The notes: a model not told the origin generated them from the letters alone. A stretch of DNA of 64,000 bases from an uncultured Gammaproteobacteria bacterium (GCA_965230935.1 OZ246400.1:502359-566358); one strand, 5' to 3'; counted from the first letter of the stretch, positions 9,392 through 31,332 are shown. Numbers and translations are program-made.

Positions 9392-9409
9392 GAAAGAGGT
9401 CTTATTCTG

Positions 9410-9483
9410 TGCGTGCTGAGGGATTCGAACCCCCGGCCCTCTCGGTGTAAACGAGATGCTCTAACCAACTGAGCTAAGCACGC
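9410..9483 (-). tRNA. tRNA-Val (anticodon TAC)
   Basis: Minus-strand sequence GCGTGCTTAGCTCAGTTGGTTAGAGCATCTCGTTTACACCGAGAGGGCCGGGGGTTCGAATCCCTCAGCACGCA. It has a 7-bp acceptor, a canonical D arm and TTCGAAT T-loop, and anticodon loop TTTACAC. No encoded CCA. Confidence 0.9.
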
Positions 9484-9553: not shown

Positions 9554-9630
9554 CAACACACTGACTCCAAGCCAGATTCAGCCCCTACACTACCAAATCA
9601 TCTTCTTTTTCGCAAGCTGTTGATGAATTA

Positions 9631-9659
9631 TTGACAAAGTTCAGGCAATTTTTTATAGT
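9631..9659 (+). promoter_or_regulatory. sigma70-like promoter TTGACA-17-TATAGT for the 9743 gene
   Basis: TTGACAAAGTTCAGGCAATTTTTTATAGT. A GAGGAGGG SD lies 7 nt before the ATG at 9743. Confidence 0.45.
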
Positions 9660-9742
9660 AAGACATCCCAATTGGGAGACTGTGACATCGGTCGCAGTTG
9701 GTTTCGCTCTTTTTCATGGATGCTTACGAGGAGGGCATCGCC

Positions 9743-11017
9743 ATGCGGCAAACAGTAATCATCGTAACGGCACTGGTCATGGGCTTGTATGCCCGCAGTG
9801 CCGACGCGCGCCCGATCAAGGACGTGCTCATCGTGGTGGCGGCCGGAAACGGGCTGGAGGAGGTGCGCACGAACGTGTCGCGCCTGCAGCAGTCGATCGA
9901 GCTGCACCTGCAGCGGGAGTTCCCGACCCAGAATCTCACGTTCGCCAAGACCAGGACGATTCTGCGACAAGGAGGACTCAACGCCAAGCGGTTGGAGACG
10001 TGCACGTACAGCGCGACCTGTCTGCACGATCTGCGCACCAAGTTGGGAGTCAAGCCGGACCGGCACTTCCTGGTCGTGCGCATCACTGGTGCTGACGCTA
10101 CCCATGCCGATCAGTACCGGGTGGTGGTCTGGAAGATCGCCGCAACGCAGGACATGGACGAGATGAACCACTCCACCTGGGTGGCGCAGGACCTGAGCTC
10201 GTTGATCAACGGAACGCGGAACCTGACGGCGACGCCGCTGCGCCCGCGCGAGGCGGTGGTGAACTTCGAACTCAAACCAGAGAACACCCGGGTGAGCGTC
10301 AACGGGACCCGACTCACAGCACCGCGCATCACGCTTCCGTTTGGCAGCACTCAGGTGACGTTCAGTGCGTCGGGGTACGTCACGCGAAAGGTGCGAGTAA
10401 CGGTGGATTCGCGTCAGGCGCGTACGTTCAAGATCACGCTGGAGCGTGCAGCGCCGGTCGATCCATGCGCCGAGGTGGTTTGCACCGCCCCGGACACGTG
10501 CGTGGACGGCCGCTGCGTGTGTCAGCCGCAGTGCACTGGTAAGCAGTGTGGTGACGATGGCTGCGGCGGGAACTGCGGCGTGTGTGGTGAGGGGACGATC
10601 TGTTCGAGCGCCAACCAGTGCATCGAGGAGCCGTTCGCCTATGGAAGAACGCTCAAGATCACCGGCTGGTCGGTTGGCGCCGTGGGCGTGATCGTGACCA
10701 TCACCGGTTCGATCATCTACAGCAGCGGGCTGGACGCCGACGACGCGCTGAGCGAGAAGTGCCCAGGCAACCGCTGTCCCGACTTCACCGAGGAGCAGAT
10801 CCGCGACGAGGCGGCTGACGTGAACAGCCAGCTGGGTACCGGACGCGCCTTGTTGATCGGTGGGATCATCGCCGCGGTGGGTGGCGTTGCCACGGCCATC
10901 ACCGGCCATGTGCTGAGTGCGGACAACACCGATAGCTCGGTCGAGGTGATGGGCTTTGAGCTCATGCAAGATCCTCGCGGACGACCGATCGGGTTCCTCA
11001 GCACCGTGCGCTTCTAG
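9743..11017 (+). CDS. Secreted PEGA-domain protein with a Cys-rich repeat region and a C-terminal Gly-rich hydrophobic segment (about 62% GC)
   Basis: Signal peptide MRQTVIIVTALVMGLYARSADA. PEGA-like VNFELKPENTRVSVNGTRL...FSASGYVTRKVRVTV. Cys-rich CAEVVCTAPDTCVDGRCVCQPQCTGKQCGDDGCGGNCGVCGEGTICSSANQC. Start at the internal Met with SD; the ORF extends to 9698. Confidence 0.7.
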   Translation: MRQTVIIVTALVMGLYARSADARPIKDVLIVVAAGNGLEEVRTNVSRLQQSIELHLQREFPTQNLTFAKTRTILRQGGLNAKRLETCTYSATCLHDLRTKLGVKPDRHFLVVRITGADATHADQYRVVVWKIAATQDMDEMNHSTWVAQDLSSLINGTRNLTATPLRPREAVVNFELKPENTRVSVNGTRLTAPRITLPFGSTQVTFSASGYVTRKVRVTVDSRQARTFKITLERAAPVDPCAEVVCTAPDTCVDGRCVCQPQCTGKQCGDDGCGGNCGVCGEGTICSSANQCIEEPFAYGRTLKITGWSVGAVGVIVTITGSIIYSSGLDADDALSEKCPGNRCPDFTEEQIRDEAADVNSQLGTGRALLIGGIIAAVGGVATAITGHVLSADNTDSSVEVMGFELMQDPRGRPIGFLSTVRF

Positions 11018-11146
11018 CGCATCGACCACAACACATAACAACTGACAACGAGATCGCTCTGCTAAACCTTCAGCGGGGTGATTTTTATTTAGAATTAAAA
11101 GAACCTCGCGAACGCGCCACGAGACTCTCTTGTTGTTAGTTAGTTG

Positions 11147-12991
11147 TTACAGGTTTGTGCACCCGCTATCTGCCAACACAAACGTCCTAGCGGTACTGCG
11201 CTCTTTCCGAGGAAGGAACGAAAGATACCGCTTAAACGCCCGACAGGCAGCCGGCTTGTTGTGCCGACGCAGGTATGCGTACCCTTGCTTGCGCAGCCGC
11301 TGGGCTTGCTGGGCTTGCGTGAGCTGCGGCTTGAGCTTGCTTTGCGCACGCCGTGCGAAGCGCTCGGCCAGTTGATACTGACCATCACGCCGCGGCGTTC
11401 GCCAGGAGTCAAACTCCAAACTCAACGGCGCCCGAACACGTCGAGGCGGATTCATCACCTCACCGTCTCGTCGAGGAGTACGCATTGGCTGCTGAACCAC
11501 CTCTGGAACCGGTGCAGGAGCTTCCACTGTCTCGGGTGCAGGTTCCGACTGCTCCTCTTGGATCGGAACCGCCGACTCTGGCGCCGCCTGTGTGAGCGAG
11601 GTAGCGCTATCACCCATCTGCAGTGTATCGTCCTCCGGGCGTTGTACCAGAAAAACCACCACCAGCAGCAATGCAACGACCGCCACTGCGAAGAGCCCGA
11701 TCAGCCGCTTGTTACGCGCGACAGGTCCCACTCCAGCGGAGAGCATGTGTGCCATGGTCGGCGACGAAGCCGGTGTCGCATCCACCAGAACAGTCGGCGA
11801 GGCCGACGGTGTTTTGGTGGTCGGACTGTTCGGCGTCAGTGCCTGAGCAGTCTCTCCGCGCCCCGAAACGATCTGCCCCGGAGCGATGATCGACACACTC
11901 GGTGATGGCGACGGCGTTTCCACCAAAGGACCAGACACCATAGCAGCCGCGCCACGAGAACTGGTCCGAGCAACCTGCAAGCGCAAGCTGATCTGCTCGA
12001 GCTGCTCAGCCACCTCTTCTGCAGTTTGCACCCGATCCTCGGGCTTGATCTGCATCAGCTTGAGTGCCAGCGCGCTCAACTCCGGATCAGCGTCTGAATT
12101 GTGCTTGCGCGGATCCAGGCCCTTGACGATCTCGGGGTCAAAACGCTGAATCAGCATCGCCATGGCAACTTCGTGCGTCTCCAGCTGAGCCGAAGTCGAC
12201 GAATCCACGGTGAAGGGCATCTCGCCGGAGAGACACTCGTAGAGCATCACGCCCAGCGCATACAGATCGCTTCGGCCATCGATGCCAGCGTCGCCCCGCG
12301 CCTGCTCCGGTGACATGTACTGCGGCGTGCCGCACACCATGCCGGCGGTCGTCAGACGTTTGGCGAGCTCGGTCTGCTCCTCCCCTGGGCCTAAAACCAC
12401 CTCCACGGGCATCTTGACGATCCCAAAATCCAGAAGCTTGACCACGTCGCGACCCTTTGCACCGGAGACCACCATCACGTTCTCGGGCTTGAGATCGCGG
12501 TGGATCACGTCCTTGCCATGCGCATGGGCCAGCGCAAGGCAGATCTCCCGGAAGATGTACGCCACACGGAACTGTTCCATGAACTTGCCCACCTGGCGAC
12601 GCCCCCAGTTGATCACCGCCAGCTCCTTACCGTCGAGGTACTCCATGGCAATGTAGAGCAGCCCCTTGAGTGGAACCGGCGACGAGATTTCGTCAACCGA
12701 GTACACGGTGAGAAATCCGGGATGGTGCGACATCTTGGCCATTGCGGTGACCTCGCGCCGGAACCGTGCACGAGCCATCGATTCCTGGAGGAACTCTGGC
12801 TTGAACACCTTGAGTGCGACCTCACGTCCGCCGACGCTCTTCTCCTGGGCGAGATAGACAATACCCATCCCGCCGGTGCCGATGTGGCGAACGATCTTGA
12901 AGTTGCCGTTGATGATCTGACCTGGGACCAACGTCGTGGTCACCAGCTCACTCGACACCACTCCGGATGCCGGCTGACGTTGCTGTGCCAC
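11147..12991 (-). CDS. Membrane-anchored Ser/Thr protein kinase (Hanks-type) with a C-terminal TM and basic extracellular tail
   Basis: Kinase subdomains are present: GTGGMGIVYLA, VALKV, HRDLKPENVMV, DFGIVK, GTPQYMSPEQ. TM segment LIGLFAVAVVALLLVVVFLV. About 62% GC. Confidence 0.85.
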   Translation of the reverse strand: MAQQRQPASGVVSSELVTTTLVPGQIINGNFKIVRHIGTGGMGIVYLAQEKSVGGREVALKVFKPEFLQESMARARFRREVTAMAKMSHHPGFLTVYSVDEISSPVPLKGLLYIAMEYLDGKELAVINWGRRQVGKFMEQFRVAYIFREICLALAHAHGKDVIHRDLKPENVMVVSGAKGRDVVKLLDFGIVKMPVEVVLGPGEEQTELAKRLTTAGMVCGTPQYMSPEQARGDAGIDGRSDLYALGVMLYECLSGEMPFTVDSSTSAQLETHEVAMAMLIQRFDPEIVKGLDPRKHNSDADPELSALALKLMQIKPEDRVQTAEEVAEQLEQISLRLQVARTSSRGAAAMVSGPLVETPSPSPSVSIIAPGQIVSGRGETAQALTPNSPTTKTPSASPTVLVDATPASSPTMAHMLSAGVGPVARNKRLIGLFAVAVVALLLVVVFLVQRPEDDTLQMGDSATSLTQAAPESAVPIQEEQSEPAPETVEAPAPVPEVVQQPMRTPRRDGEVMNPPRRVRAPLSLEFDSWRTPRRDGQYQLAERFARRAQSKLKPQLTQAQQAQRLRKQGYAYLRRHNKPAACRAFKRYLSFLPRKERSTARTFVLADSGCTNL

Positions 12992-13374
12992 GGTTGTCCT
13001 CCCTGTAGCTGCGAGTTCGATGTTCGATAAGACGATTCTAGGCCAATCCCAGCATCATCTCACGAATCCGAACTCTCAGCTCATAAAAAGAACTGTCTAT
13101 ATTTAGTATAGACCAACTGATTTAGTATCCAAAATCAGGAGGATATATTGTAGGATTTCAGCGTAATTTTGTCAATAATTGAAAAACCACCAAAGATTAC
13201 TTTAGTGGCCTTTCAAATTTGGAATTTTGCATTCCAGTAATGTGCAGGCTACTGAACGACGTCGACAACCTTCTGCTCCAAATGCAGGAAAATCCCCTAA
13301 AATGGCAAAACCCACATACGATGTACTCGTCGTGGGCTGCGTTGTTGTGAGTTAGTTATTGGATGTTGGCCGAC

Positions 13375-14409
13375 CTACGAGTCGTACCGGTCAGGTTTGT
13401 CGTAGGCGATGATTACAATATCGATGCCGGAGATGTGATGATCGCGCCAGCCACGATTCTTACTGGCGATACGCCAAGCAACCGCCAACCCTGCCATGGT
13501 CGTGCGACCATATGGCAAAGTCAGGTAGTTGTCCCAGTGCGGCAACCCATGCGTCATCGGCAGTCCTGGAAATCCTTCCAGATCGCGACCAACCGGAGCG
13601 TATTGCTTGTTGGTCAACTCGTCGCTCACCAGGACCGTGTCTGAGACTAACTCTTCTTCAAAGGCCGCCCTGATGTGAGGAAAGGGAATCCCCGGAAAGC
13701 TGGTGCCAGGCAAGCGATGCCGTGGCAGACTACCAGGCTCGATCCCGTACTCTTGCTTGTACCGTCCTGGGTAGATCATCTCGTAACCCACCCCTGACTG
13801 GAAGGATTCGAACGTCACGACCCGGACCCCAGCACGATTGAACACGCGACCCGGACCCAGGACACTCGAACCGTTGCCAAGCCCAGCGACATAGACGTCG
13901 ACTTCACGCCCGCGCTGTTCGAGAACCTCTTCTCCGATCGCTGCGAGTGCTGAGGTTGTAATCGTGTTCTCTGTCCCCCCAGCCCACATCGAGTGATTCA
14001 AGAAGAACACATCGGGGTTATCCGGTAGGTACCTCCGGAGAAAATCCGGAAAGCCGCTCACGTAGGTTTCAGCCGAGGTGAAAATGAGCTCTGCGCCCTG
14101 TGCCTTGATGGCCTCCTCACGCGCACGCTCACCCCCTGCAGGGATCGCGACTATACAATGGTAGCCGAGCTCGCGACCAATCCCAGCAAATGACACGCCG
14201 GCGCTCCCTGAGGTTGTCTCCAACACCTTGTCACCTGGCTGTATCCGTCCCTGGCTTTCCCAGTACCGGAACAGCGCGAGGTACACCCGATCGTAGTGAC
14301 TCCCCCACGGGTTGTCGCACTCCAACTTGAGCCAGATGCGACAGTCGTTTGGCACATACCCGCTGTATTGAACCAGCGGAGTATTACCGATACTCTTCAG
14401 TATGGACAT
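13375..14409 (-). CDS. PLP-dependent enzyme of the CysK/CBS (Trp-synthase beta) superfamily
   Basis: MSILKSIGNTPLVQ... and TSGSAGVSFAGIGRELGYHCIVAIP resemble the cysteine-synthase N-terminus and the lysine/Gly-loop region. Start at the internal Met; the ORF extends to 14493. About 57% GC. Confidence 0.7.
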   Translation of the reverse strand: MSILKSIGNTPLVQYSGYVPNDCRIWLKLECDNPWGSHYDRVYLALFRYWESQGRIQPGDKVLETTSGSAGVSFAGIGRELGYHCIVAIPAGGERAREEAIKAQGAELIFTSAETYVSGFPDFLRRYLPDNPDVFFLNHSMWAGGTENTITTSALAAIGEEVLEQRGREVDVYVAGLGNGSSVLGPGRVFNRAGVRVVTFESFQSGVGYEMIYPGRYKQEYGIEPGSLPRHRLPGTSFPGIPFPHIRAAFEEELVSDTVLVSDELTNKQYAPVGRDLEGFPGLPMTHGLPHWDNYLTLPYGRTTMAGLAVAWRIASKNRGWRDHHISGIDIVIIAYDKPDRYDS

Positions 14410-14675
14410 CTCCGCTTCTCCTCTCGCACTACCACACGCAGCAAAACGGCGTATCGGCTTCTGTGTGCAGATGATGCGACAGGAGTAGATCACATTGAAT
14501 CACGATTTCATGATTTCGTCAACATGATCAAAGGGTTCAAGTCCTGTGGGGAGTCCCTACTGGAATGTGCCTAATTTTGGTAGAAGAAAATTCCCAAATT
14601 TCACTGACGTGGAACCCAAAAATCTCGCCTAAAATTAGACGAGATTTCGGGGTCAAAAATGACATTTTTTGTGAG

Positions 14676-14762
14676 TGCTGAAGAGAGGACTTGAACCTCC
14701 ACCCCGGTTGCCCAGGACCAGGCCCTCAACCTGGCGCGTCTACCAATTCCGCCACTTCAGCG
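14676..14762 (-). tRNA. tRNA-Leu (anticodon GAG), long variable arm
   Basis: Minus-strand sequence GCTGAAGTGGCGGAATTGGTAGACGCGCCAGGTTGAGGGCCTGGTCCTGGGCAACCGGGGTGGAGGTTCAAGTCCTCTCTTCAGCA. Anticodon loop TTGAGGG. Confidence 0.88.
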
Positions 14763-14764
14763 CG

Positions 14765-15538
14765 TTATACAAACGCTCGTTTTTTACCGGTGATCAACTT
14801 CACACGATGCGGAGCAAGTTTGATCTCCACACGAGTCTCTTTACTTCGTTGACCATCAATAAATAATTCAAACGGCGTTTTGGCATATACAGTCATACGC
14901 TCAAACGGCAATACGGTGAGCGGTGCATACTGGGTACGCCAAAAAGCCTTTTTCCTTGCTTGCTTTTGTAATGGACGAACAAACACCTCGAGCTTGCGAT
15001 CTTTTGGATGACTCATTTTACCATAATGCTGCTTACACCAGGGCATGGTTCGCAGATTGCATACCGCCAACTCAAGTGCATCACTGGTTGGTCCCATGGC
15101 ATACTTACCGTCCATTGCCATCCAAATCTTACTCATGGGGATGTGTACTTCACCAATGGCATATCGATTGTTAATCGACAGTACATCAATCGCGAGCACT
15201 CGTCGCGCGCTCACGACTGCACAGGCATCAGCACCATACGGAATCCCAAGTAACTTACTCATTCCAACTTCGCGCCCAATTGGAATCCACCCAAATACCA
15301 TCTCGACATCAGCGCATTGGGTCAACACCTTGCTAAACGTATTCTCATCTCCAACCACAACTGCAGTCTTTGCACCATGACGAATCTCGTCATGCAAGAT
15401 TGCTTTGGGATTTGAAAACGCAGCGAGTTTGACAATTTTGCCACTCAACTCCAAATCAGTCAACCGGTTTTCAATACTTTTCAGTACGCGTGCGTATGGT
15501 CCGGTTTTGACAAACGTGTCATACAAGTACACGTACAT
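14765..15538 (-). CDS. DAGK_cat/YegS-like lipid-kinase-fold protein with a degenerate GGDGT motif
   Basis: MYVYLYDTFVKTG...KTAVVVGDENTFSKVL matches the N-terminal beta-strand plus GGDGT-like loop of the diacylglycerol/NAD kinase fold. Assignment is tentative. Confidence 0.4.
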   Translation of the reverse strand: MYVYLYDTFVKTGPYARVLKSIENRLTDLELSGKIVKLAAFSNPKAILHDEIRHGAKTAVVVGDENTFSKVLTQCADVEMVFGWIPIGREVGMSKLLGIPYGADACAVVSARRVLAIDVLSINNRYAIGEVHIPMSKIWMAMDGKYAMGPTSDALELAVCNLRTMPWCKQHYGKMSHPKDRKLEVFVRPLQKQARKKAFWRTQYAPLTVLPFERMTVYAKTPFELFIDGQRSKETRVEIKLAPHRVKLITGKKRAFV

Positions 15539-15543
15539 AGTGG

Positions 15544-16032
15544 TTATGCAGTTGCACGTGCTTCAACCGTACTAGTACGTCGGGTACGTGCGCGACTGGT
15601 TGCCGGCTTGGTTTCTTTCACTGCTTTTGTATGCTCATTTGGCATGGCACATTTTCCATGCAACGTAGCACCACCTGCCACAATCAACCGTGCCGCTTGC
15701 ACATCACCGATCACAACTGCAGTCTCGGTTAACTCAAGCGTATCTTTGATTTTGACATTACCAGTAATCTCTCCGGAGATCTTTGCGTTTTGTGCACTGA
15801 CACTTGCCAAAATCTTAGCGCCGGTCTCGACAGTCAGATCTTTTGCTGTCTTGACATTGCCGGCAACTGTCCCTTGGACAATCATACTCCCTTTACTGCT
15901 AAAATCCCCTTCGACCTCTACTGAAGGACCAACAATGGTCTCCACATCATGGCCTACCTCTTGCTGAGTATCTACAGTGATCTCTTGTTGATCGCGATCG
16001 TTCTCCTCTTGTTTATTCTTTTGTTTGAACAT
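15544..16032 (-). CDS. Bactofilin-family cytoskeletal protein
   Basis: Repetitive beta-helix pattern (VEGDFSSKGSMIVQGTVAGNVKTAKDLTVETGAKILASVSAQNAKISGEITGNVKIKD...) typical of DUF583/bactofilin, with basic termini. Confidence 0.7.
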   Translation of the reverse strand: MFKQKNKQEENDRDQQEITVDTQQEVGHDVETIVGPSVEVEGDFSSKGSMIVQGTVAGNVKTAKDLTVETGAKILASVSAQNAKISGEITGNVKIKDTLELTETAVVIGDVQAARLIVAGGATLHGKCAMPNEHTKAVKETKPATSRARTRRTSTVEARATA

Positions 16033-16109
16033 AATTAGTATTCACCTAAATGCAAAATGAAAACAGTGCACCCATATGGTACACTGCACCGGATACTTTG
16101 ACAAGTAGC

Positions 16110-17834
16110 TTACATCTGCTCCAAATATGGCACGCCAAGAATTTCCATAGCATCTTTAAGTGCCTCGCTCATCACCTGCACAAGCGCCAAACGCACATGA
16201 TGAACCTCTCCTGAATCATCAATCACTTGAGAAGATTCATAAAACGTTCCAACCATCTGTGCGAGCTCATAAGCAAAGCGTGCAATGTGTGACGGGTCAT
16301 AGTGTGCTGCTGCTTGGGCCAAGACTTCTGGGTACCACAACAGATGAATCATAATCTTACGTTCAACAGCAGTAAGGTCATTGGTCCACTCAACTTTTTG
16401 GAGAGCATCCACACCAACCTTACTCAAAATCCCATGCAACCGGGCACCGGCATACTGCAATGCCACTGAGCTAAATCCATGCAAGGACAATGCTGAGTCC
16501 ATATCAAACACAATCTGTTGATTACTACCAACAGAGACCATGGTAAACTTCATCGCCCCCATTGCAATATCACGCGCTACCGCCTGTACATGAACCGCAT
16601 TCCAATCGGGGTGTCGTGCAACAATCTCCTCTTGCGCCCGCGCAATAAGTGCGTCACGTAAATCACGATGACGAATCACGGTTCCGGTTCTCGAACTCAT
16701 CATACCATCGGGCAAGGTCACAAAATCATACCCAATGTGCACCAACTCTTTTTGCATGCCAGAAAGCTCCAACACTTTGTACAGTTGTGCAAAGTATTGG
16801 CCCTGACGAATATCCGTAAGCACAATACTGGTGCTGGCTTCTGGATACCGCTCGAATTTCGCATCAACCAAAGCCAAATCGGTGGTAGAATACAGGCCAG
16901 TGCCATCGGACTTGAGCAGGAGCAAGACTCCAAGATTGTACTCTTCAAGATCTGCAATAATTGCGCCTTGAGATTTTTTCACCACTCCGGCACTTAATAG
17001 CGCATCAACCTTGGCCTTTCCATTGTGCTTAACATCACTTTCAAAAAACAAGCTATCAAACTCTAAATCCATCTCATTATATACCACCTCAAACCCAGCC
17101 ATACTCCAATCACGTGTCTTGCGCCACAGCGCATGCTCTGGTGAATTTGGGTCGTCTTCAATCGCCTTAAGCACTGCGTCAACCTCAGCTCGTGCAGCAT
17201 CATCGCCTTCCATCTTAGCGCTAGCCTCAGCGTATATGTCAGCAAGCGTTTCCATTTTAGTTGCTTCCTCTGTTGTGATTACTTCAATACCACCTCCACC
17301 ATGAAACTTCTGCAAGCCCCAAATACACTTGGCAACATTCATGCCAAAATCATTCACAAAGTTTACCGGGATAACCATGTTTCCTTGTGAGCGGAGCAGC
17401 TGAATAATACTTGCGCCAAGCGCATGGTTTCGCACATGACCAATATGCACCTCTTTATGCGTATTCAATCCTGAATATTCAAAAATGATTTTTTTCGTCT
17501 GCTCTTTGTGCCAACCATAGCGGTCGCCTTCTTTCAAAATTTCGTCACTGAGCCCCCCGGCAAGTCGCGCGGTATCCAAATGTACATTGACATATGGCCC
17601 GGTGGCCTCAACACGATCAACTAAGACTAATGTCGCCGCAGATAACTCTTTGACAATCTCTTTGGCAAGGTCAGCCGGAGAGATCTTCTTTTCTTTTGCC
17701 ATGGCAAAACAGGGATAACTAATATCACCCATCTCTGGTTTTGGCGGACTGAGTAGATCAGCCGGAGTCACGTTGTATTGCGCTGCCGCACTGATGGCAT
17801 CAGCAATGGTTTCTTTCAGGTGAAGTAGAATCAT
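16110..17834 (-). CDS. argS: Arginyl-tRNA synthetase
   Basis: Class-I HIGH motif (HIGHVRN), the N-terminal add-1 domain (MILLHLKETIADAISAA...), an anticodon-binding C-terminus and an MSSRTG KMSK-like region. The start codon lies 1 nt after the tyrS stop. Confidence 0.92.
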   Translation of the reverse strand: MILLHLKETIADAISAAAQYNVTPADLLSPPKPEMGDISYPCFAMAKEKKISPADLAKEIVKELSAATLVLVDRVEATGPYVNVHLDTARLAGGLSDEILKEGDRYGWHKEQTKKIIFEYSGLNTHKEVHIGHVRNHALGASIIQLLRSQGNMVIPVNFVNDFGMNVAKCIWGLQKFHGGGGIEVITTEEATKMETLADIYAEASAKMEGDDAARAEVDAVLKAIEDDPNSPEHALWRKTRDWSMAGFEVVYNEMDLEFDSLFFESDVKHNGKAKVDALLSAGVVKKSQGAIIADLEEYNLGVLLLLKSDGTGLYSTTDLALVDAKFERYPEASTSIVLTDIRQGQYFAQLYKVLELSGMQKELVHIGYDFVTLPDGMMSSRTGTVIRHRDLRDALIARAQEEIVARHPDWNAVHVQAVARDIAMGAMKFTMVSVGSNQQIVFDMDSALSLHGFSSVALQYAGARLHGILSKVGVDALQKVEWTNDLTAVERKIMIHLLWYPEVLAQAAAHYDPSHIARFAYELAQMVGTFYESSQVIDDSGEVHHVRLALVQVMSEALKDAMEILGVPYLEQM

Positions 17835-17835
17835 A

Positions 17836-19056
17836 CTATGGTTTGACCCGTGCAAAGTGCCGCTTTCCTTTTCGCAAAACAATTCCTTTGCCAAGAGTGA
17901 TCTCCTCTGTAATGTCAGTAATCTTTTTTTCATCAACTGAAACGCCACCCTGTTCAATCGCCCGACGTGCCTCACTTTTGCTTTTAACAAGCGTGGCTGC
18001 GACCAACAGCTCGACAATATTCATTGTTTTCGCGCCAACAGAAACCTCTGGCATATCATCTGGATTTTCTCCTGCGCTAAATACTTTGTCGAAATGCTCC
18101 TGTGCCATTTGGGCTGCTGCTTCGCTGTAATAATCACGTACAATAGTATATGCAAGCTGACGTTTGTAATCACGTGGGTTCTCTCCTTTTTTCAAACCTT
18201 TTTCGATCTGCTTGAGTGCATCCATTGGCTCAAGAGTACAGAGCTCAAATCCAGGAACAATTAGCCCATCGCTCCAGCTCATCACTTTGCCGTACGCATC
18301 TTCAGGAGTATCGGTGAACGCTAACATATTGCCAGTGGTTTTGCCCATTTTGGCTCCTGAGTTATCGGTCAACAACTTCATGGTGATGACAAACTTCTCT
18401 TTACCATTACATAGCGCCTTCATTAAAGTACGCCCAGCCAACATGTTGAAGGTTTGATCATTCCCACCAACCTCGCCATCAATTCCTCCTTTAACAATTT
18501 TGACTGAATCATAGCCTTGCATCAGTGGATACATAAACTCATGAAGGTAAATTGGCTTGCCCTCCTTCATGCGATTATCAAACATATCACGCTCAAGCAT
18601 GCGCTGAACTGTAAAATGGCTGGCAAGCTCAATCACATCAGCAAAACTCATCTCATGGAGCCACTCCCCATTGTATTTAAGCTCTGCCTTGTTCTTGCCG
18701 ATAAAGTCCAAAATATGCGCTGCTTGCTCTTGATACACTTTAGCGTTTTTCAAGGTCTCTTTGTGCGTCAACCGCTTGCGCGCGGAAGTCTTATCAGTTG
18801 GATCACCGATCATGCCGGTAAAATCACCAATGAGCATGATGACTTTGTGGCCAAGCAATTGAAAATGGCGAAGCTTAAGCAAGGTAATTGCATGGCCAAC
18901 ATGGAGCGTGGGTGCAGTAGGATCATACCCAACGTACAAGGTAAGCTTTTTTCCTTCTTGCAAGCGTGCTTTTACAAAATCGCGCGATGGATAGATATTT
19001 TCTACTCCGCGATCAAGCACTTGATCAATGAGTTGTGAGTCAGTTGAGATAGGCAT
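17836..19056 (-). CDS. tyrS: Tyrosyl-tRNA synthetase
   Basis: YVGYDPTAPTLHVGHAI (HIGH), KMGKT (KMSKS) and a C-terminal S4-like domain. Start at MPISTDSQ, 1 nt after the valS stop. Confidence 0.92.
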   Translation of the reverse strand: MPISTDSQLIDQVLDRGVENIYPSRDFVKARLQEGKKLTLYVGYDPTAPTLHVGHAITLLKLRHFQLLGHKVIMLIGDFTGMIGDPTDKTSARKRLTHKETLKNAKVYQEQAAHILDFIGKNKAELKYNGEWLHEMSFADVIELASHFTVQRMLERDMFDNRMKEGKPIYLHEFMYPLMQGYDSVKIVKGGIDGEVGGNDQTFNMLAGRTLMKALCNGKEKFVITMKLLTDNSGAKMGKTTGNMLAFTDTPEDAYGKVMSWSDGLIVPGFELCTLEPMDALKQIEKGLKKGENPRDYKRQLAYTIVRDYYSEAAAQMAQEHFDKVFSAGENPDDMPEVSVGAKTMNIVELLVAATLVKSKSEARRAIEQGGVSVDEKKITDITEEITLGKGIVLRKGKRHFARVKP

Positions 19057-19057
19057 A

Positions 19058-21817
19058 CTACAAAGAAGCAAGTTGATTAGTTATAGCATCGCATTTTTGT
19101 TTTGCTAACGCAATCTTTTCTTTGTCCTGTGCAATGACATCTGGTGCAGCATGTTCTTGATATTTTGGATTGGCAAACTTTTTCTCAAGTCCTGTTAAGT
19201 ACTTCTCGATCTGCTCCTTCTCTTTTAAGAGCTTTTTCTTTTTGGCTTCGATATCCACCTGTCCATCGATCGGGACAAACAAGACAGCACCAGCTAGCGG
19301 TGTCACTACACAATTCTCTGGCACACTATCAGTAAAGGTGAACTCAGCCACCCTTCCCATAGACTCAATATATGGTAGTTGGTCTTTCAGCGCTTCCCAT
19401 GAAGCTTCCTCAATTGCCAAGCCGGCACGAATCATGTCCCCTGGCGCGATGTCATATTCTGGTCGAAGTGATCGCAAGCCACTGACTACTGCCATTACCT
19501 TGGTAAATGAATAAATTGCATCAACATCAAATGGATATTGCTCAAGTACCTGCTGCTCACTTCTTGGACATTGCTTCATCATAAGCAGACCATCACCATT
19601 ATGCAGCTCTTGCCAAAGTGCCTCAGTAACAAATGGCAAAATCGGATGCCATAGTTGAAGCAATACACTCACCACATGAGCCATAAGATCAGGATTTGGT
19701 TTACTCTTACTTGCTTCCACATACCAATCAGCAACCGTATCCCAAGTAAACGCCCGTAATTTTTCAGCAGCTTGAGAAAATTGATAGTGATCTAACTTGT
19801 TTCTCACACTATTTATGACAACACCAAGTTGGCTCACCATCCACTGATCAGCCAATGTCTTCACTTCAAACTGATTCGGATCCCCACCTTGCGACTTGGC
19901 AAATCGCGCAATGTTCCAGAGCTTGTTCACCAAATGTTGCGCTGATTCAACTTTCTCCTCATAAAACCGTGCATCATTCCCTGGAGATACTCCGGCGATC
20001 AAACTGTAGCGTAACGCATCTGTTCCATACTTATCAATAATCACAAGTGGATCAATCCCATTGCCAAGCGACTTTGAAAACTTTCTCCCATCCTTGTCGC
20101 GCAAAATGCCATGAATATACGCATCATGAAATGGAATTTGATCAAGGGTGTACGTGCTAAACAAAATCATGCGCGCCATCCAAAAAAACAAAATCTCATA
20201 GCCCATTTGCATCCAGGTGGTTGGATGAAACGTCTCCAGCTCATGATCTTGCGCTGGCCACTTGAGCGTTGAAAATGTCCACATCCCAGAGCTAAACCAC
20301 GTATCCAATGTATCCTCATCTTGAGTCCAGCCGTCGCCTTCCGGAGCTGTGACGCTTGCCACAACCTCATCTTCTCGATACCACACCGGAATTCGATGCC
20401 CCCACCAAATCTGACGAGAAATACACCAGTCGCGAAGATTATCAATCCAGCCAAAGTAATTTTTTTCGAATCGTGCCGGAGTGATAACAACTTTTTGATC
20501 AGGATCACCATTATGCCCAGTAGTAACCGCTTCACGCATAAGATCTTTAAGCGATTTTCCACGCCCAGGAATCTCCTTATTCACATCAACAAACCACTGC
20601 TTGGAAATCATGGGTTCAACAACAGTATGCGATCGATAACACAGTGGCACGCGGTGGGTATAATTAACGTCTTCACCAACAATCAACCCTTGCGCTTTCA
20701 TAATCTCAACTGCCTTTTTGCGTGCCTGCTCGATTGGTAATCCAGCGGCCGGACCGGCAATGTCAGTCATCTTTCCATCAAAACCAATCTTCGTGATAAA
20801 CGTCTCATTAAGCCCTCGACGTTTTGCAAGATCATAATCGTCAGCTGAGTGTGACGATGAGATCGTCATTGCTCCAGCACCTTTTTCTATATCAATAACC
20901 TCATCAGCTAACACCGTAAACTGACGATCGCCGGCATAGGTAGGATAGGTAAACGAAACTCCTTCGAAATCGCTCCCCTGCTTTTTTTCTACTACGACAA
21001 AATCACTTTGCGCGCCAAGGGTATTGCACACCTGTGCAAACTGCTCTTTATCATTAAACAGATTCTCTGAAACCCAAAGCTTGTCCTGCTCACCTTGGGC
21101 ATTAGTAAATTCTACAAAGACATACGTTCCATTAGGATGAACCACCAGAGGTGAATCAGCGCATTTAGTCTCTGGACGAACGGTCCCGATAACAAATTCA
21201 CCGCACCGAATGTAGTAAAACGGCTCCTGCCGATCTTCCCATTCAAGTTCGTCATCTGACAATACTGAATTTGCACCAATGGACCAGTTCACCAATCGGG
21301 TGCCACGATAAATCAGACCGTCATTAAACATTCTGATAAATACTTCATTTACTGCGGCATTCCGCTGCTCATCAAACGTGTACGCCAACCGACTCCAGTT
21401 AGCACTCGTACCCATTTTTCGAATCTGTTTTAAAATCGTTGATTTTGAATCTTCAGCATACGTACGAATTTTTTCAAGCAAACCTTCGCGACCAAATTCT
21501 GTGCGAGGATCCTCATGACCTTCTTTTACCAAATTACTTTCAACACGTGCCTGGGTAGCTACGGCCGCGTGATCAGTTCCTGGTAGGAGCAAAACCTTTT
21601 TCCCTTGCATGCGCTGAAACCGCGCCATGGTATCCATGAGCGTATTCTCCAGAGCGTGCCCCAAATGCAGCACTCCGGTCACATTTGGTGGGGGCATCAT
21701 GATAGAAAATTGTTCGCCTTCAATGTTGTCAGGATTAAAAAACCCTGACTTCTCCCATTTCTGATAAATAGAATCCTCATGTTCCTGAGGATTGTAGGCC
21801 TTTGGCATGTCCTTCAT
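19058..21817 (-). CDS. valS: Valyl-tRNA synthetase
   Basis: PPPNVTGVLHLGHALENTLMD (HIGH), KFSKSLGN (KMSKS), an editing domain and a C-terminal coiled coil. Start at MKDMPKAYNPQ, about 915 aa. Confidence 0.93.
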   Translation of the reverse strand: MKDMPKAYNPQEHEDSIYQKWEKSGFFNPDNIEGEQFSIMMPPPNVTGVLHLGHALENTLMDTMARFQRMQGKKVLLLPGTDHAAVATQARVESNLVKEGHEDPRTEFGREGLLEKIRTYAEDSKSTILKQIRKMGTSANWSRLAYTFDEQRNAAVNEVFIRMFNDGLIYRGTRLVNWSIGANSVLSDDELEWEDRQEPFYYIRCGEFVIGTVRPETKCADSPLVVHPNGTYVFVEFTNAQGEQDKLWVSENLFNDKEQFAQVCNTLGAQSDFVVVEKKQGSDFEGVSFTYPTYAGDRQFTVLADEVIDIEKGAGAMTISSSHSADDYDLAKRRGLNETFITKIGFDGKMTDIAGPAAGLPIEQARKKAVEIMKAQGLIVGEDVNYTHRVPLCYRSHTVVEPMISKQWFVDVNKEIPGRGKSLKDLMREAVTTGHNGDPDQKVVITPARFEKNYFGWIDNLRDWCISRQIWWGHRIPVWYREDEVVASVTAPEGDGWTQDEDTLDTWFSSGMWTFSTLKWPAQDHELETFHPTTWMQMGYEILFFWMARMILFSTYTLDQIPFHDAYIHGILRDKDGRKFSKSLGNGIDPLVIIDKYGTDALRYSLIAGVSPGNDARFYEEKVESAQHLVNKLWNIARFAKSQGGDPNQFEVKTLADQWMVSQLGVVINSVRNKLDHYQFSQAAEKLRAFTWDTVADWYVEASKSKPNPDLMAHVVSVLLQLWHPILPFVTEALWQELHNGDGLLMMKQCPRSEQQVLEQYPFDVDAIYSFTKVMAVVSGLRSLRPEYDIAPGDMIRAGLAIEEASWEALKDQLPYIESMGRVAEFTFTDSVPENCVVTPLAGAVLFVPIDGQVDIEAKKKKLLKEKEQIEKYLTGLEKKFANPKYQEHAAPDVIAQDKEKIALAKQKCDAITNQLASL

Positions 21818-21871
21818 ATATAGCAATTGTATATAGAAAGGCTATTTTACGCAATAAACGCAATACTCACC

Positions 21872-21899
21872 TTGACAAAATCCAAAAATTTGGTATGCT
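21872..21899 (+). promoter_or_regulatory. sigma70-like promoter TTGACA-16-TATGCT
   Basis: TTGACAAAATCCAAAAATTTGGTATGCT, upstream of the 21981 gene. Confidence 0.4.
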
Positions 21900-21980
21900 C
21901 ATGAGAGCTTGCCGGTACCAATACCGGTGTACCAATCATCCCGTTTCAACCGGCCAACACACGGCCAAGGGGGTTTTCCC

Positions 21981-22976: not shown

Positions 22977-23062
22977 CGCTTCGCTGCAAGGCGACCAAAC
23001 ACACAACAACCCACAACGAGAACGCACGCCAACTGGCGCGCTGTTTTCTTTTTGTGCCGGTA

Positions 23063-23091
23063 TTGACAACTGGCACAAAACGCGCTAAGGT
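23063..23091 (+). promoter_or_regulatory. sigma70-like promoter TTGACA-17-TAAGGT
   Basis: TTGACAACTGGCACAAAACGCGCTAAGGT. It resembles the groES promoter (shared CGCTAAG[AG]T -10 region). Confidence 0.4.
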
Positions 23092-23160
23092 ACGTATCTT
23101 GGGATGAGCAGTGCACAGGGCCAGACTCAATGACAACACCCGAGATAGGAGGAACGTCGT

Positions 23161-23727
23161 ATGATGCGATCCATCGGGATTGCGTTGTTGACCGTACTGG
23201 CCTTGGCCAGTGAAGCGCAGGCGCAGCGTGCTCCGAGCCCGGCGCAGATCCAGCGTCAGCGTGAGTACGTGGAGTACCTCGAGGGCGAGGCGCAACGCGC
23301 GCAGGAGATGCATTACCTGCGCGAGCGCGAGCAACGCGCACGTCAGGAGTTGCGCGAGTACGGTGGGGGCGGCTACTACCCTCAGCAAGGTGGCGGTGGC
23401 TACTACCCTCCTCAGGGGGGCTATGCCCCGCCGGGGTACCATCCTGGCTACCAGCCGGGTTATGGTCCGCCGCCAGGACATCATCCCGGTGGATATTATC
23501 CCCCACCATGTGAGCATGGTGGGGGGTACGGGCCACCGATGTACCATCCTGGCATGGATCGCCCGGGGCCGGGGTACTACCCACAGACCGGATCCGACTA
23601 TGGTTACCGACCGGCGCCAGCACCCCATCGGCTGCGCAGAGCGCGCGTACGACGTGCCCCGCGACAGCACCGCTATCGCAGACCGGTCCCGGTTCGACGA
23701 CGCGTCGTGCGCCGGCGCCATCGCTGA
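23161..23727 (+). CDS. Secreted low-complexity Gly/Tyr/Pro-rich protein with an Arg-rich C-terminal tail (about 65% GC)
   Basis: SD GGAGGAACGTCGT precedes ATG ATG. Signal peptide MMRSIGIALLTVLALASEAQA. Repeats GGGGYYPQQGGGGYYPPQGGYAPPGYHPGYQPGYGPPPGHHPGGYYPPP. Tail RRARVRRAPRQHRYRRPVPVRRRVVRRRHR. Confidence 0.5.
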   Translation: MMRSIGIALLTVLALASEAQAQRAPSPAQIQRQREYVEYLEGEAQRAQEMHYLREREQRARQELREYGGGGYYPQQGGGGYYPPQGGYAPPGYHPGYQPGYGPPPGHHPGGYYPPPCEHGGGYGPPMYHPGMDRPGPGYYPQTGSDYGYRPAPAPHRLRRARVRRAPRQHRYRRPVPVRRRVVRRRHR

Positions 23728-31232: not shown

Positions 31233-31304
31233 TCCTTATATCGATCGAATTTGAATATAGTATATCACATATTTTGGTTTTATTTTAGGAAAATATCCAA
31301 TGGC

Positions 31305-31332
31305 AGACCCCGACACACTTGTGTCGGGGTCT
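31305..31332. terminator. Perfect 13-bp hairpin (AGACCCCGACACA-CTT-GTGTCGGGGTCT) between the two giant genes
   Basis: Inverted repeat seen directly. It lies 3' of the second giant gene (minus strand) and upstream of the first. No strong T-run. Confidence 0.4.

What the first reader, a model, noticed from the sequence alone, without database searches (positions are those of the whole stretch)
9620..14560. A ~5-kb, ~60% GC insertion between tRNA-Val and tRNA-Leu(GAG) carrying Myxococcota-like genes
Backbone genes are about 40-45% GC (a 60-nt sample from valS is 40%), whereas 10001-10060 is 62%. The insertion carries three genes: a secreted PEGA-domain protein with a Cys-rich CxxC repeat region, a Hanks-type Ser/Thr kinase with a TM anchor, and a CysK/CBS-like PLP enzyme. 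PEGA proteins, STPKs and Cys-rich secreted proteins together are typical of Myxococcota and similar high-GC bacteria and are unexpected in a small-genome AT-leaning organism. The island is bracketed by two tRNA genes (9410-9483 and 14676-14762). Its genes use host-like promoters (TTGACA-17-TATAGT) and SD sequences. It also contains a 330-nt AT-rich spacer (13040-13370) with direct repeats ATTTAGTAT. The options are recent horizontal acquisition at a tRNA hotspot or an assembly/binning chimera.
Basis: partly seen in the sequence, partly recalled or inferred. Interest (0 to 1): 0.7.

Follow-up and report, generated by a model that had tools for sequence, protein, structure and literature searches.

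The report
Composite foreign-gene islet between two tRNAs
A small, probably symbiotic (CPR-like) bacterium carries, between two tRNA genes, a correctly assembled patch of GC-rich genes that came from at least two different kinds of donor; this is an ordinary kind of horizontal gene transfer with a few unexplained details.

Summary
Window 9620-14560 is 58% GC (coding parts 57-64%, GC3 0.65-0.82) in a 46% GC backbone. It lies between tRNA-Val(TAC) and tRNA-Leu(GAG). It encodes a PEGA-domain envelope protein with a Cys-rich insert, a receptor-type Hanks Ser/Thr kinase and a CysK-fold protein.

It is not a chimera: three other public assemblies are 100% identical across the junctions. It is also not one recent Myxococcota insertion.
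- **CysK-fold gene:** it belongs to a CPR/DPANN clade and looks imported from a ~55% GC Patescibacteria-type genome.
- **Kinase + PEGA pair:** it occupies the same inter-tRNA slot, in the same orientation, in a distant syntenic relative (33% GC) where it is compositionally native. The same convergent pair occurs in a 70% GC bacterium. The two CPR copies are no closer to each other than to homologues from high-GC bacteria. Repeated capture or replacement at a hotspot is the best reading.
- **Native signals:** GC-richness stops at ORF ends. Most spacers, and the sigma-70 promoters and Shine-Dalgarno sites, are native.
- **Second islet:** 21.9-23.8 kb shows the same pattern.

This is a known kind of feature (an HGT islet) with unresolved oddities.

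The parts
9409..9483 (-). tRNA-Val(TAC), left boundary of the conserved inter-tRNA slot
   Evidence: ARAGORN and Rfam, 72.4 bits. The same tRNA bounds the slot in relative L003.
9631..9659 (+). Sigma-70-type promoter of the PEGA gene (TTGACA-17-TATAGT). It carries the 13-nt element AATTATTGACAAA shared with the kinase promoter.
   Evidence: shared element (I1; only two exact copies in 64 kb). The same promoter type precedes backbone genes.
9743..11017 (+). PEGA-domain envelope protein, 424 aa. Layout: signal peptide; alpha/beta N-domain (aa 28-166, weakly TolB-N/LpoB-like); PEGA beta-sandwich (aa ~170-232); Cys-rich insert (aa ~239-305, nt ~10457-10657); helical hairpin / two TM segments (aa 308-391); terminal beta-hairpin ending in RF. 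GC 0.637, GC3 0.82.
   Evidence: Pfam; orthologs L003 and P0275; AF2 model with pLDDT 60; fold hints; Cys-rich unit hits. The plus-strand frame has GC3>>GC1>GC2, whereas the public antisense call has GC1 0.81.
11018..11146 (.). 129-nt spacer between the convergent PEGA and kinase genes, GC 0.45 (backbone-like)
11147..12991 (-). Receptor-type Hanks Ser/Thr kinase, 614 aa. GTG start with SD AGGGAGGA; kinase domain nt ~12011-12898; TM nt ~11645-11704; extracytoplasmic tail with a TPR-like C-terminal helix pair. GC 0.61, GC3 0.71.
   Evidence: Pfam Pkinase 142.7 bits. Catalytic motifs read in the translation (GTGGMG, VALK, HRDLKPEN, DFG, SPE). The public 573-aa call cuts off the Gly-rich loop. Full-length alignment with the L003 kinase.
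13147..13175 (-). Sigma-70-type promoter of the kinase (TTGACA-17-TACAAT), about 156 nt upstream of the start
13101..13128 (.). Two copies of ATTTAGTAT, 19 nt apart start to start, inside the predicted kinase 5'UTR. Possible operator or UTR element; function unknown.
   Evidence: 2 copies in 64 kb; 5 of 100 shuffles reach 2
13375..14409 (-). CysK-fold (fold-type II PLP fold) protein, 344 aa, of a CPR/DPANN clade in which the Schiff-base Lys is replaced by Tyr (NPWGSHYDR). GC 0.573, GC3 0.65. Inserted between tRNA-Leu and the kinase promoter; absent at this site in L003.
   Evidence: GC relative to host genomes. L003 layout.
14675..14761 (-). tRNA-Leu(GAG), right boundary of the slot
   Evidence: same tRNA in L003 and L005
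21872..22976 (+). Second island, gene A: promoter TTGACA-16-TATGCT (21872-21899) and a secreted orphan protein (21981-22976, 331 aa, signal peptide ...ASVAMA|QTQ). GC 0.633, GC3 0.86.
   Evidence: No Pfam, NCBIfam or PADLOC hit.
23063..23727 (+). Second island, gene B: promoter TTGACA-17-TAAGGT (23063-23091) and a secreted Gly/Pro/Tyr-rich protein (23161-23727, 188 aa). GC 0.668. L003 may have a positional counterpart (211 aa).
   Evidence: Weak similarity to the L003 ORF (E 6e-4), not reproduced in a stricter search.

Best explanation
The region is a real, correctly assembled accessory islet in a reduced, monoderm-type (CPR/Patescibacteria-like) genome. It was built by at least two separate horizontal transfers from different kinds of donor and then domesticated.

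Part 1 is a two-gene envelope-signalling cassette. It pairs a receptor-type Hanks Ser/Thr kinase (cytoplasmic kinase domain, one TM segment, extracytoplasmic helical tail) with a convergently transcribed, membrane-anchored protein that has a TolB-N/LpoB-like N-domain and a PEGA domain. This cassette type occurs in high-GC bacteria. The tRNA-Leu(GAG)/tRNA-Val(TAC) interval is a conserved slot that holds such a cassette in two distantly related genomes of the lineage. The window's copy is most likely a later capture or xenologous replacement from a different high-GC (Myxococcota-like) donor, not a vertical descendant of the copy seen in the relative.

Part 2 is a CysK-fold gene of a CPR/DPANN clade. 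It came from a ~53-57% GC Patescibacteria-type genome and was inserted between tRNA-Leu and the kinase promoter.

Each gene now runs from its own native sigma-70 promoter and Shine-Dalgarno site. Functionally (inferred), the PEGA protein is the extracytoplasmic partner or co-sensor of the kinase, and the kinase relays an envelope or cell-contact signal by phosphorylation.

Shown: the composition, the gene models, the homologies, the synteny and the assembly support. Inferred: the direction and number of transfers, and the kinase-PEGA functional coupling.
For: Foreign composition at all codon positions, in codon usage and in GC-normalised dinucleotide signature. The PEGA+kinase signature is nearer to a 70% GC genome (delta* 91) than to its own backbone (150).

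Assembly support: 100% identity with three other assemblies.

Conserved slot: L003 has the order giant protein-DHH-tyrS-argS-bactofilin-258aa-tRNA-Leu-[kinase > < PEGA-like]-tRNA-Val-MTase-YraN-NusA-YidC. It aligns over the full length for the kinase (E 4e-57) and the PEGA protein (E 3e-11).

The cassette exists as a unit outside CPR: P0275 (361 aa) lies convergent with a kinase in a 70% GC contig where it is compositionally native (GC3 0.88-0.90).

The two CPR copies are not sisters. For the PEGA protein, L003-L019 is 30%/157 bits, window-L019 is 24%/79 bits and window-L003 is 22%/50 bits. In the kinase-domain NJ tree, window+L003 are sisters in 6 of 100 bootstraps, and each ranks 76th-90th of 120 from the other. 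Flanking backbone proteins are 55-71% identical.

The window's PEGA protein alone carries a Cys-rich unit (CGDDGCGGxCGxC) whose best match is a cluster labelled Myxococcales.

Kinase-PEGA link: several of the best kinase hits have PEGA fused to the kinase, and the L003 kinase clusters with them. The two window promoters share a 13-nt element.

PLP-fold gene: nearest relatives are CPR, then DPANN. The gene's GC tracks the host genome (0.42 in a 35% GC archaeon, 0.53-0.57 in 52-55% GC Patescibacteria) but is 0.57 in the 46% GC window. It is absent at this site in L003, where the kinase promoter follows tRNA-Leu directly.

General background: HGT islands are frequent in Patescibacteria, mostly within the phylum, with some CPR-DPANN exchange (PMC12455944).
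Against: No donor-like sequence was found. The best non-self matches are 35-43% (kinase domain only) and 24% (PEGA protein), in searches over up to 5.8 billion clusters and 1.84 billion representatives that include the source metagenomes. Yet GC3 (0.71-0.86) is almost un-ameliorated, which under neutral amelioration implies a recent transfer.

Most spacers inside and beside the islands are 34-45% GC with native promoters (one island-2 spacer is 54%), whereas spacers in the 70% GC genome are 63-76%. A contiguous donor block was therefore not simply pasted in, and I have no mechanism for ORF-precise replacement.

Capture of the same cassette type at the same slot in the same orientation twice is a coincidence, unless the slot is a true hotspot or replacement was homology-guided.

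Kinase-domain distances are near saturation (about 1.0-1.1), so the tree cannot exclude sisterhood with accelerated, composition-driven divergence.

The organism carrying the 70% GC cassette is unnamed, and a Myxococcales-labelled kinase locus that I checked does not have the PEGA-like partner. The backbone's assignment to Patescibacteria is inferred from gene content and size, not from a phylogeny.
Confidence: 0.55

Rival explanations
1. Vertical inheritance plus ORF-limited GC enrichment. The kinase, the PEGA protein and island-2 gene B are old residents of the lineage. In the window's lineage some force that acts on coding sequence only (selection on codon usage or mRNA, or gene-specific GC-biased conversion) has driven them to 61-67% GC and accelerated their divergence.
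For: Same slot, same orientation and same architecture in L003. GC changes within about 60 nt of ORF ends, and most spacers and all promoters found are native. There is no donor in very large databases. The window's proteins are the longest branches of each trio. The dinucleotide values are intermediate between the backbone and a high-GC genome.
Against: No known bacterial mechanism raises GC3 by 30-45 points in a few genes while leaving adjacent spacers untouched. GC1 and GC2 and the GC-normalised signature are shifted too, as in genes at equilibrium in a 60-68% GC genome. The Cys-rich unit typical of high-GC bacteria is present only in the window's copy. The kinase domains are not sisters. 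Two other GC-rich genes (the PLP-fold gene and island-2 gene A) have no counterpart in L003, and the PLP-fold gene fits plain HGT.
Confidence: 0.2
2. Allelic replacement from a high-GC member of the same CPR clade. Homologous recombination through the conserved flanks (tRNAs and backbone genes) swapped in the cassette of a related but roughly 60-65% GC Patescibacteria genome.
For: This explains positional orthology and conserved architecture together with foreign composition. Most HGT into Patescibacteria comes from other Patescibacteria (PMC12455944). The PLP-fold gene shows that intra-CPR import did happen here.
Against: No such relative was found in genome or metagenome scans. Spacers adjoining the tRNAs are backbone-like, not intermediate. 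GC3 of 0.82-0.86 implies a donor of about 68% GC, which (from my own knowledge, not tested here) is above the usual range for CPR genomes. Imports by flank recombination should also hit housekeeping genes, but all backbone genes in 64 kb are compositionally uniform.
Confidence: 0.12
3. One reading: a single recent ~5-kb insertion from a Myxococcota-like donor at a tRNA hotspot.
For: Foreign composition between two tRNAs. Labelled best hits of the kinase and the Cys-rich unit are Myxococcota.
Against: The PLP-fold gene is of a CPR/DPANN type with a different GC level. The relative already has the cassette in this slot. There is no integrase and there are no att repeats. The internal spacers are 42-45% GC with native promoters. 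Best identities are only 24-43%.
Confidence: 0.08
4. Assembly or binning chimera.
For: Sharp compositional steps. Both ends of the 9.7-kb sister-sample contig fall inside GC-rich genes, which could reflect graph tangles.
Against: The sequence is identical across all four island junctions in a 96-kb MEGAHIT contig, and across the right-hand island-1 junction and the valS/island-2 junction in a sister-run contig and a Logan contig (the Logan contig covers only the former). Two islands would need four misjoins. The GC steps are at ORF ends 100-265 nt away from the tRNAs, next to native promoters. The tRNAs (75-87 nt) are shorter than the assembler's k-mers. L003 has the same architecture.
Confidence: 0.02

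Closest known systems
tRNA-associated genomic islands / integrative elements
   Same: Compositionally foreign accessory genes lodged next to tRNA genes. The site is reused in a related genome.
   Different: There is no integrase, no att direct repeats and no mobility genes. The islet is a mosaic of separately acquired genes, each embedded in native spacers with its own native promoter.
Receptor-type Hanks (eukaryote-like) Ser/Thr kinases of Myxococcota and other high-GC bacteria, including kinases with C-terminal PEGA or TPR domains
   Same: Intact kinase motifs. Architecture of kinase, linker, one TM segment and an extracytoplasmic helical TPR-like tail. Association with PEGA. Best labelled hits are Kofleriaceae, Myxococcales and Polyangiaceae.
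   Different: PEGA is on a separate, convergently transcribed membrane protein, not fused to the kinase. Identity is only 35-43% and confined to the kinase domain. The host is a genome of about 0.93 Mb.
PASTA kinases PknB/Stk1 (NCBIfam NF033483)
   Same: Best-scoring NCBIfam model (219 bits). Membrane-anchored kinase with an extracellular sensor part.
   Different: The score is far below the 450-bit cut-off and there are no PASTA domains. It is not a member.
O-acetylserine sulfhydrylase / cysteine synthase (CysK, CysM) and cystathionine beta-synthase
   Same: Full fold-type II PLP fold (Foldseek TM 0.7-0.8 over about 345 columns). Conserved Asn-loop-like TTSGSAG and Gly-rich GNGSS motifs.
   Different: 109 bits against cut-offs of 344-394. 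The Schiff-base lysine is replaced by Tyr (GSHYDR, invariant in the 14 clade members aligned). The clade's labelled members are CPR and DPANN.
HGT islands in Patescibacteria (mSystems 2025, PMC12455944)
   Same: Islands and single transferred genes make up to 13% of genome length. Donors are mostly other Patescibacteria, with some CPR-DPANN exchange. This fits the PLP-fold gene.
   Different: Here a signalling cassette of a type known from high-GC non-CPR bacteria is involved, at a slot shared by two distant relatives.
PD-T4-6 single-gene Ser/Thr-kinase phage defence (PADLOC)
   Same: The kinase domain matches PD-T4-6 models at up to 228 bits.
   Different: Those models capture generic Hanks kinase domains. 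The TM receptor architecture and the PEGA partner are not part of PD-T4-6, and the partner proteins match nothing in PADLOC.

Membership tests
tRNA-linked integrative genomic island | Atypical base composition and codon usage relative to the host genome | tested here: met
tRNA-linked integrative genomic island | Located at or next to a tRNA gene | tested here: met
   Between tRNA-Val(TAC) and tRNA-Leu(GAG). The second island (21.9-23.8 kb) has no tRNA next to it.
tRNA-linked integrative genomic island | Integrase/recombinase or other mobility gene | tested here: not met
   Only three real ORFs in the islet, and none has a recombinase domain
tRNA-linked integrative genomic island | Flanking direct repeats (att sites) derived from the tRNA 3' end | tested here: not met
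   Only chance-level repeats of 12-16 nt
tRNA-linked integrative genomic island | Empty site in related genomes | tested here: not met
   The one syntenic relative found (L003) has a kinase + PEGA-like pair in the same slot. Only the PLP-fold gene is missing there.
Hanks-type Ser/Thr protein kinase (PF00069) | Pkinase domain above the Pfam gathering score | tested here: met
   142.7 bits against a 31.7 cut-off
Hanks-type Ser/Thr protein kinase (PF00069) | Catalytic motifs: Gly-rich loop, VAIK Lys, HRDxKxxN, DFG, APE-like | tested here: met
   GTGGMG, VALK, HRDLKPEN, DFG and SPE read in the translation. They are present only with the GTG start at 12991.
PASTA kinase PknB/Stk1 (NF033483) | Score at or above the curated cut-off, and extracellular PASTA repeats | tested here: not met
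   219 bits against 450, and no PASTA domain in Pfam
PEGA-domain protein (PF08308) | PEGA domain above the gathering score | tested here: inconclusive
   The window protein scores 20.6 against 20.8. The L003 ortholog scores 30.5. An exhaustive phmmer search matches aa 142-240 to PEGA repeats of 20 proteins. The AF2 model shows a beta-sandwich at aa 170-232.
Cysteine synthase CysK/CysM (TIGR01136/01138/01139) | Score at or above the curated cut-off | tested here: not met
   98-109 bits against 344-394
Cysteine synthase CysK/CysM (TIGR01136/01138/01139) | Schiff-base lysine in the motif NP-x-GS-x-K-D/C-R | tested here: not met
   Tyr39 aligns with the Lys in gap-free alignments to 2egu and 9jxu. 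GSHYDRVY is invariant in 14 clade members.
Fold-type II PLP-dependent enzyme fold (PF00291) | PALP domain above cut-off, and the fold over the full length | tested here: met
   108.7 bits against 35. AF2 pLDDT 83.5; Foldseek TM 0.7-0.8 to CysK, CysM and CBS. PLP binding itself is not testable here.
PD-T4-6 kinase defence system (PADLOC) | Match to the PD-T4-6 kinase models | tested here: inconclusive
   Up to 228 bits, but the models match generic kinase domains. There is no curated cut-off and no defence context.

The most novel reading that the evidence does not exclude
The GC-rich genes are long-term residents of this symbiont lineage. Their coding sequences, but not their spacers or promoters, are kept in the composition of a high-GC partner organism. 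This could happen through continual gene flow or conversion from the host, or through selection on the coding sequence. In that case a small set of secreted and signalling genes (kinase, PEGA protein, two secreted orphans) would be a compositional fingerprint of the unknown host of this CPR lineage, possibly a Myxococcota-like bacterium.
Probability: 0.1. Interest if true: 0.7.

Novelty: new member of a known kind. Interest (0 to 1): 0.4.

Why it matters
If the reading is right, a reduced CPR-type bacterium has repeatedly recruited a receptor-kinase/PEGA envelope-sensing cassette from high-GC bacteria into one conserved inter-tRNA slot, and has wired it to its own promoters. That gives three things:
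- a concrete candidate for genes involved in sensing or contacting a partner cell, and a possible hint about who that partner is;
- a clean example that a compositional island can be a mosaic of unrelated transfers and not one insertion;
- a warning for annotation, because in the public records the GC-rich genes are called on the wrong strand or with truncated starts, so two or three of the five proteins are missing from protein databases.

Separately, the CysK-fold clade that lacks the catalytic lysine is widespread in CPR and DPANN. It is routinely named cysteine synthase, which is probably wrong.

Tried and rejected
- Exact-sequence look-ups with my first ORF coordinates found nothing because the start codons differ from the public gene calls. 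This was solved through homologue P0001.
- The genome-contig scan with ArgRS gave only one useful relative (L003). The source genome is not a species representative.
- The metagenome scan with the 257-aa flank protein gave four distant relatives. Only L008 had downstream sequence, and its synteny is broken: bactofilin, 253-aa ORF, M29 peptidase, IF-2, DHH, with no cassette.
- Organism names for the source genome, L003 and L019 could not be obtained from cluster records or the literature.
- L009 and L010 looked like a second strain but are 100% identical to the window; only the gene call differs.
- A marginal tblastn hit of the kinase tail to the gene next to the L019 kinase is an out-of-frame artefact.
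- The convergent neighbour of the Myxococcales-labelled kinase P0233 is unrelated to the PEGA-like family.
- No tRNA genes flank the cassette in the 70% GC genome.
- No viral contigs carry the PEGA-like or PLP-fold families.
- Rfam found nothing in the spacers or in the third GC-rich patch.
- The extended -35 motif ATTGACAA looked specific to the island genes, but TTGACA(A) promoters are general in this genome.
- A 12-nt inverted copy of the tRNA-Leu T-arm at 14534-14545 is at chance level.
- The idea that the PLP-fold gene keeps a constant GC whatever its host was rejected: GC is 0.42 and GC3 0.30 in a 35% GC archaeon.
- One codon-usage column (island-2 gene A) was computed in the wrong frame and redone.
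- The PEGA structure model has low confidence (pLDDT 60), so the fold hits are only hints.

Full report

Yes. In 1-kb windows the GC fraction rises from 0.46-0.49 to 0.59-0.64 between about 9.5 and 13 kb, and is again 0.57 at 13.5-14.5 kb. The interval 9620-14560 is 0.582, against 0.461 for the rest of the window without the two islands. The shift is not an amino-acid effect. GC3 is 0.82, 0.71 and 0.65 for the three genes, against 0.33-0.48 for the 12 backbone ORFs measured, and about 40 ORFs window-wide give the same picture. Their synonymous codon usage correlates 0.70-0.83 with each other and about 0 with the backbone. The GC-normalised dinucleotide signature of the pooled island genes lies 136 delta* units from the backbone, where 6-kb backbone samples give 40 +/- 15 with a maximum of 90.

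The three domain assignments hold: PEGA is marginal at 20.6 against 20.8 bits, Pkinase scores 142.7 bits and PALP 108.7 bits. The promoter TTGACA-17-TATAGT is at 9631-9659. ATTTAGTAT occurs twice, at 13101 and 13120.

It has two secreted-looking ORFs with GC3 of 0.86 and 0.66.

**2. Gene models**

- **PEGA gene:** most likely starts at the ATG at 9743 (SD GAGGAGGG, followed by a signal peptide), giving 424 aa.
- **Kinase:** must start at the GTG at 12991 (SD AGGGAGGA). The 573-aa public call begins inside the Gly-rich loop.
- **PLP-fold gene:** runs 13375-14409 and encodes 344 aa.

In the public assemblies the gene caller took the antisense shadow ORF in place of the PEGA gene, and minus-strand ORFs across the second island. 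The plus-strand frames show the normal GC3>>GC1>GC2 pattern, while the shadow calls have GC1 of 0.81-0.89. This explains why the PEGA protein has no self-hit in the protein database.

**3. Not a chimera**

The window protein P0001 lies on a 931,061-bp NCBI contig and on a 95,993-bp MEGAHIT contig of run ERR2281801. The MEGAHIT contig is 100% identical to window 3375-24355, which covers both islands and all four junctions. A 9.7-kb MEGAHIT contig from sister run ERR2281800 and a Logan contig are 100% identical to 12485-22196 and 12897-14741 respectively. The GC steps do not coincide with the tRNAs. They sit at ORF ends 100-265 nt away, next to native promoters. I could not map reads, so this is strong but indirect evidence.

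**4. What kind of genome is this?**

The backbone encodes GroEL, UvrA, RNase J, a short 246-aa YidC, DUF4012, Wzy-like and sugar-transferase genes, bactofilin, clustered aminoacyl-tRNA synthetases and two surface proteins of about 2,000 aa, on a contig of 0.93 Mb at 46% GC. This indicates a reduced monoderm-type genome, most likely Patescibacteria/CPR. That is an inference; I could not run a phylogeny.

**5. The PLP-fold gene is not Myxococcota-like**

Its nearest relatives (58-65% identity) are labelled Parcubacteria, Kaiserbacteria and Patescibacteria, followed at 45-53% by Woesearchaeota and Nanoarchaeota. In Patescibacteria contigs of 52-55% GC the gene matches its surroundings (0.53-0.57). 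In a 35% GC Woesearchaeota genome it is 0.42 with GC3 of 0.30. In the 46% GC window and in another 45% GC contig it stands out at 0.57. The relative L003 lacks it, and there the kinase promoter follows tRNA-Leu directly. The simplest reading is a separate import from a ~53-57% GC CPR-type genome, in line with published intra-Patescibacteria and CPR-DPANN exchange (PMC12455944).

The protein has the full CysK/CysM/CBS fold: AF2 pLDDT 83.5 and Foldseek TM 0.7-0.8. It scores far below the cysteine-synthase cut-offs. Tyr replaces the Schiff-base lysine, and this is invariant in the 14 clade members aligned.

**6. The kinase + PEGA pair is a cassette with a history**

A genome scan with ArgRS found L003, which has a 33% GC backbone and 55% ArgRS identity. 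It is syntenic over more than 20 kb and carries two ORFs between tRNA-Leu(GAG) and tRNA-Val(TAC), in the same convergent arrangement.
- The kinases align over their full length, including the TM segment and the C-terminal helix pair (28% identity, E 4e-57).
- The PEGA proteins align colinearly (22%, E 3e-11). They share a signal peptide, a C-x5-CL motif, PEGA, TGW at the first TM, a loop Cys, GH-L in the second TM and a terminal RF.
- The Cys-rich unit of about 55-65 aa is present only in the window's copy.
- In L003 the pair is compositionally almost native: GC3 is 0.25-0.36 against 0.13-0.24 for most backbone genes.

An exhaustive phmmer search of 1.84 billion representatives with the N-terminal 241 aa found PEGA-repeat proteins and a single colinear relative, P0275. 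P0275 lies convergent with a Ser/Thr kinase in a 70% GC contig (GCA_005776585.1), where both genes are native with GC3 of 0.88-0.90. So the two-gene unit exists outside CPR, in a high-GC bacterium whose identity I could not establish.

**7. Vertical or repeated capture?**

The flanking backbone proteins are 55-71% identical between the window and L003. The cassette proteins are 22-28% identical. For the PEGA protein:

| Pair | Identity | Score |
|---|---|---|
| L003 - L019 | 30% | 157 bits |
| window - L019 | 24% | 79 bits |
| window - L003 | 22% | 50 bits |

In a kinase-domain NJ tree of 121 sequences, the window and L003 are sisters in only 6 of 100 bootstraps, and each ranks 76th-90th from the other. 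The L003 kinase clusters with kinases that have PEGA domains fused to them. The window's PEGA protein alone carries a CGDDGCGGxCGxC unit whose best match is a cluster with a Myxococcales-labelled member. The codon-position GC of the window's genes is what is expected at equilibrium in a 61-68% GC genome (this applies the Muto-Osawa/Lawrence-Ochman relations, which are established knowledge). That cannot be a relic of an acquisition predating a split as deep as 55% ArgRS identity.

Together these points favour at least two captures, or a xenologous replacement, from different high-GC donors into one conserved slot. The caveats are serious:
- kinase distances are saturated;
- there is no donor above 43% identity;
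- most spacers are native-like (34-45% GC, against 63-76% in the 70% GC genome; one island-2 spacer is 54%);
- four of the five GC-rich genes each have a canonical native promoter 70-156 nt upstream.

I have no mechanism for ORF-precise replacement. The rival view, old residents with ORF-limited GC enrichment, therefore keeps appreciable weight.

**8. How it probably works**

The kinase has all catalytic motifs, one TM segment and an extracytoplasmic tail of about 160 aa ending in a TPR-like helix pair. The PEGA protein is predicted to expose an alpha/beta N-domain and a PEGA beta-sandwich outside the cell, anchored by a helical hairpin. The N-domain gives weak but consistent Foldseek hints to the TolB-N, LpoB and GNA1162 envelope domains.

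Four observations support the two proteins working together as an envelope or contact sensor that signals by Ser/Thr phosphorylation:
- the pairing is conserved in three genomes;
- PEGA-kinase fusions occur among the closest kinases;
- the arrangement is always convergent;
- the two window promoters share a 13-nt element.

The coupling, the ligand and the substrates are all inferred. The kinase domain matches PADLOC's PD-T4-6 models, but these are generic kinase models and nothing else suggests a defence function.

**9. No mobility signatures**

There is no integrase and there are no att-like repeats. No tRNAs lie next to the cassette in the high-GC genome, and there are no viral carriers. The islet fails three of the five defining features of a classical tRNA-linked integrative island.

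**10. Verdict**

It is wrong in treating the region as one recent insertion and in the affinity of the PLP-fold gene. This is a new member of a known kind, an HGT islet in a CPR-type genome.

Three things remain worth following up:
- the reuse of one slot by non-sister cassettes;
- the ORF-limited GC-richness with native regulatory DNA;
- the lysine-less CysK-fold clade.

Noticed in passing
window 21872-23727: A second GC-rich islet between valS and the DHH gene. It has two secreted orphan proteins (331 aa, GC3 0.86; 188 aa, Gly/Pro/Tyr-rich). Each has its own TTGACA-type promoter. No family hits. Gene B may have a positional counterpart in L003 (E 6e-4, not reproduced in a stricter search).
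   Followed up: partly
window 13375-14409 (and alignment A3): The CysK-fold protein and all 13 aligned CPR/DPANN relatives have GSHYDRVY where CysK, CysM and CBS have GS-x-K-D/C-R. The Schiff-base lysine is a tyrosine, although the full fold is kept (TM 0.7-0.8). The clade is annotated 'cysteine synthase' in public sources, which is probably wrong.
   Followed up: partly
window 52790-53164 (about 52850-53150 is GC-rich): A third small GC-rich patch (GC 0.56, GC3 0.65) between RNase J and the next gene, ending in a clean intrinsic terminator at about 52750-52785. It is either a 124-aa Cys-rich ORF or a structured RNA. No Pfam or Rfam match.
   Followed up: partly
window 9653-11029 and 22020-23721 (minus strand), as called in L001: Public gene calls in the GC-rich regions are antisense shadow ORFs (GC1 0.81-0.89), and the public kinase call is truncated by 41 aa. 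The PEGA protein, and probably the island-2 proteins, are therefore absent from protein databases.
   Followed up: yes
window 12485 and 22196 (ends of L009): The 9.7-kb contig from the sister sample breaks inside the kinase gene and inside island-2 gene A. This could reflect a coverage loss in GC-rich DNA or strain-level variation in exactly these genes.
   Followed up: no
window 9626-9638 and 13168-13180: The PEGA and kinase promoters share the exact 13-mer AATTATTGACAAA (a 23-nt inverted repeat at 83% complementarity). These are the only two copies in 64 kb, which hints at co-regulation.
   Followed up: partly
window 38432-38506: A tRNA-Ile with anticodon TAT, which is uncommon in bacteria; most read AUA with a lysidine-modified CAT tRNA.
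   Followed up: no
L008 10985-12103: In a more distant relative, a single M29 aminopeptidase gene forms a 57% GC spike in a ~40-45% GC contig, right after the homologue of the 257-aa flank gene. This is another single-gene compositional outlier in the lineage.
   Followed up: no
L003 (CAZVIA010000008.1): The syntenic relative is deposited as 'uncultured Gammaproteobacteria bacterium'. Its gene content (short YidC, the same gene order as the window) does not fit that label, so the contig or bin is probably misclassified.
   Followed up: no
window 25140-37652: Two tandem paralogous surface proteins of about 2,030 and 2,080 aa, with Gly-rich repeats and C-terminal TM regions. L003 has a 1,980-aa counterpart at the same place.
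   Followed up: no
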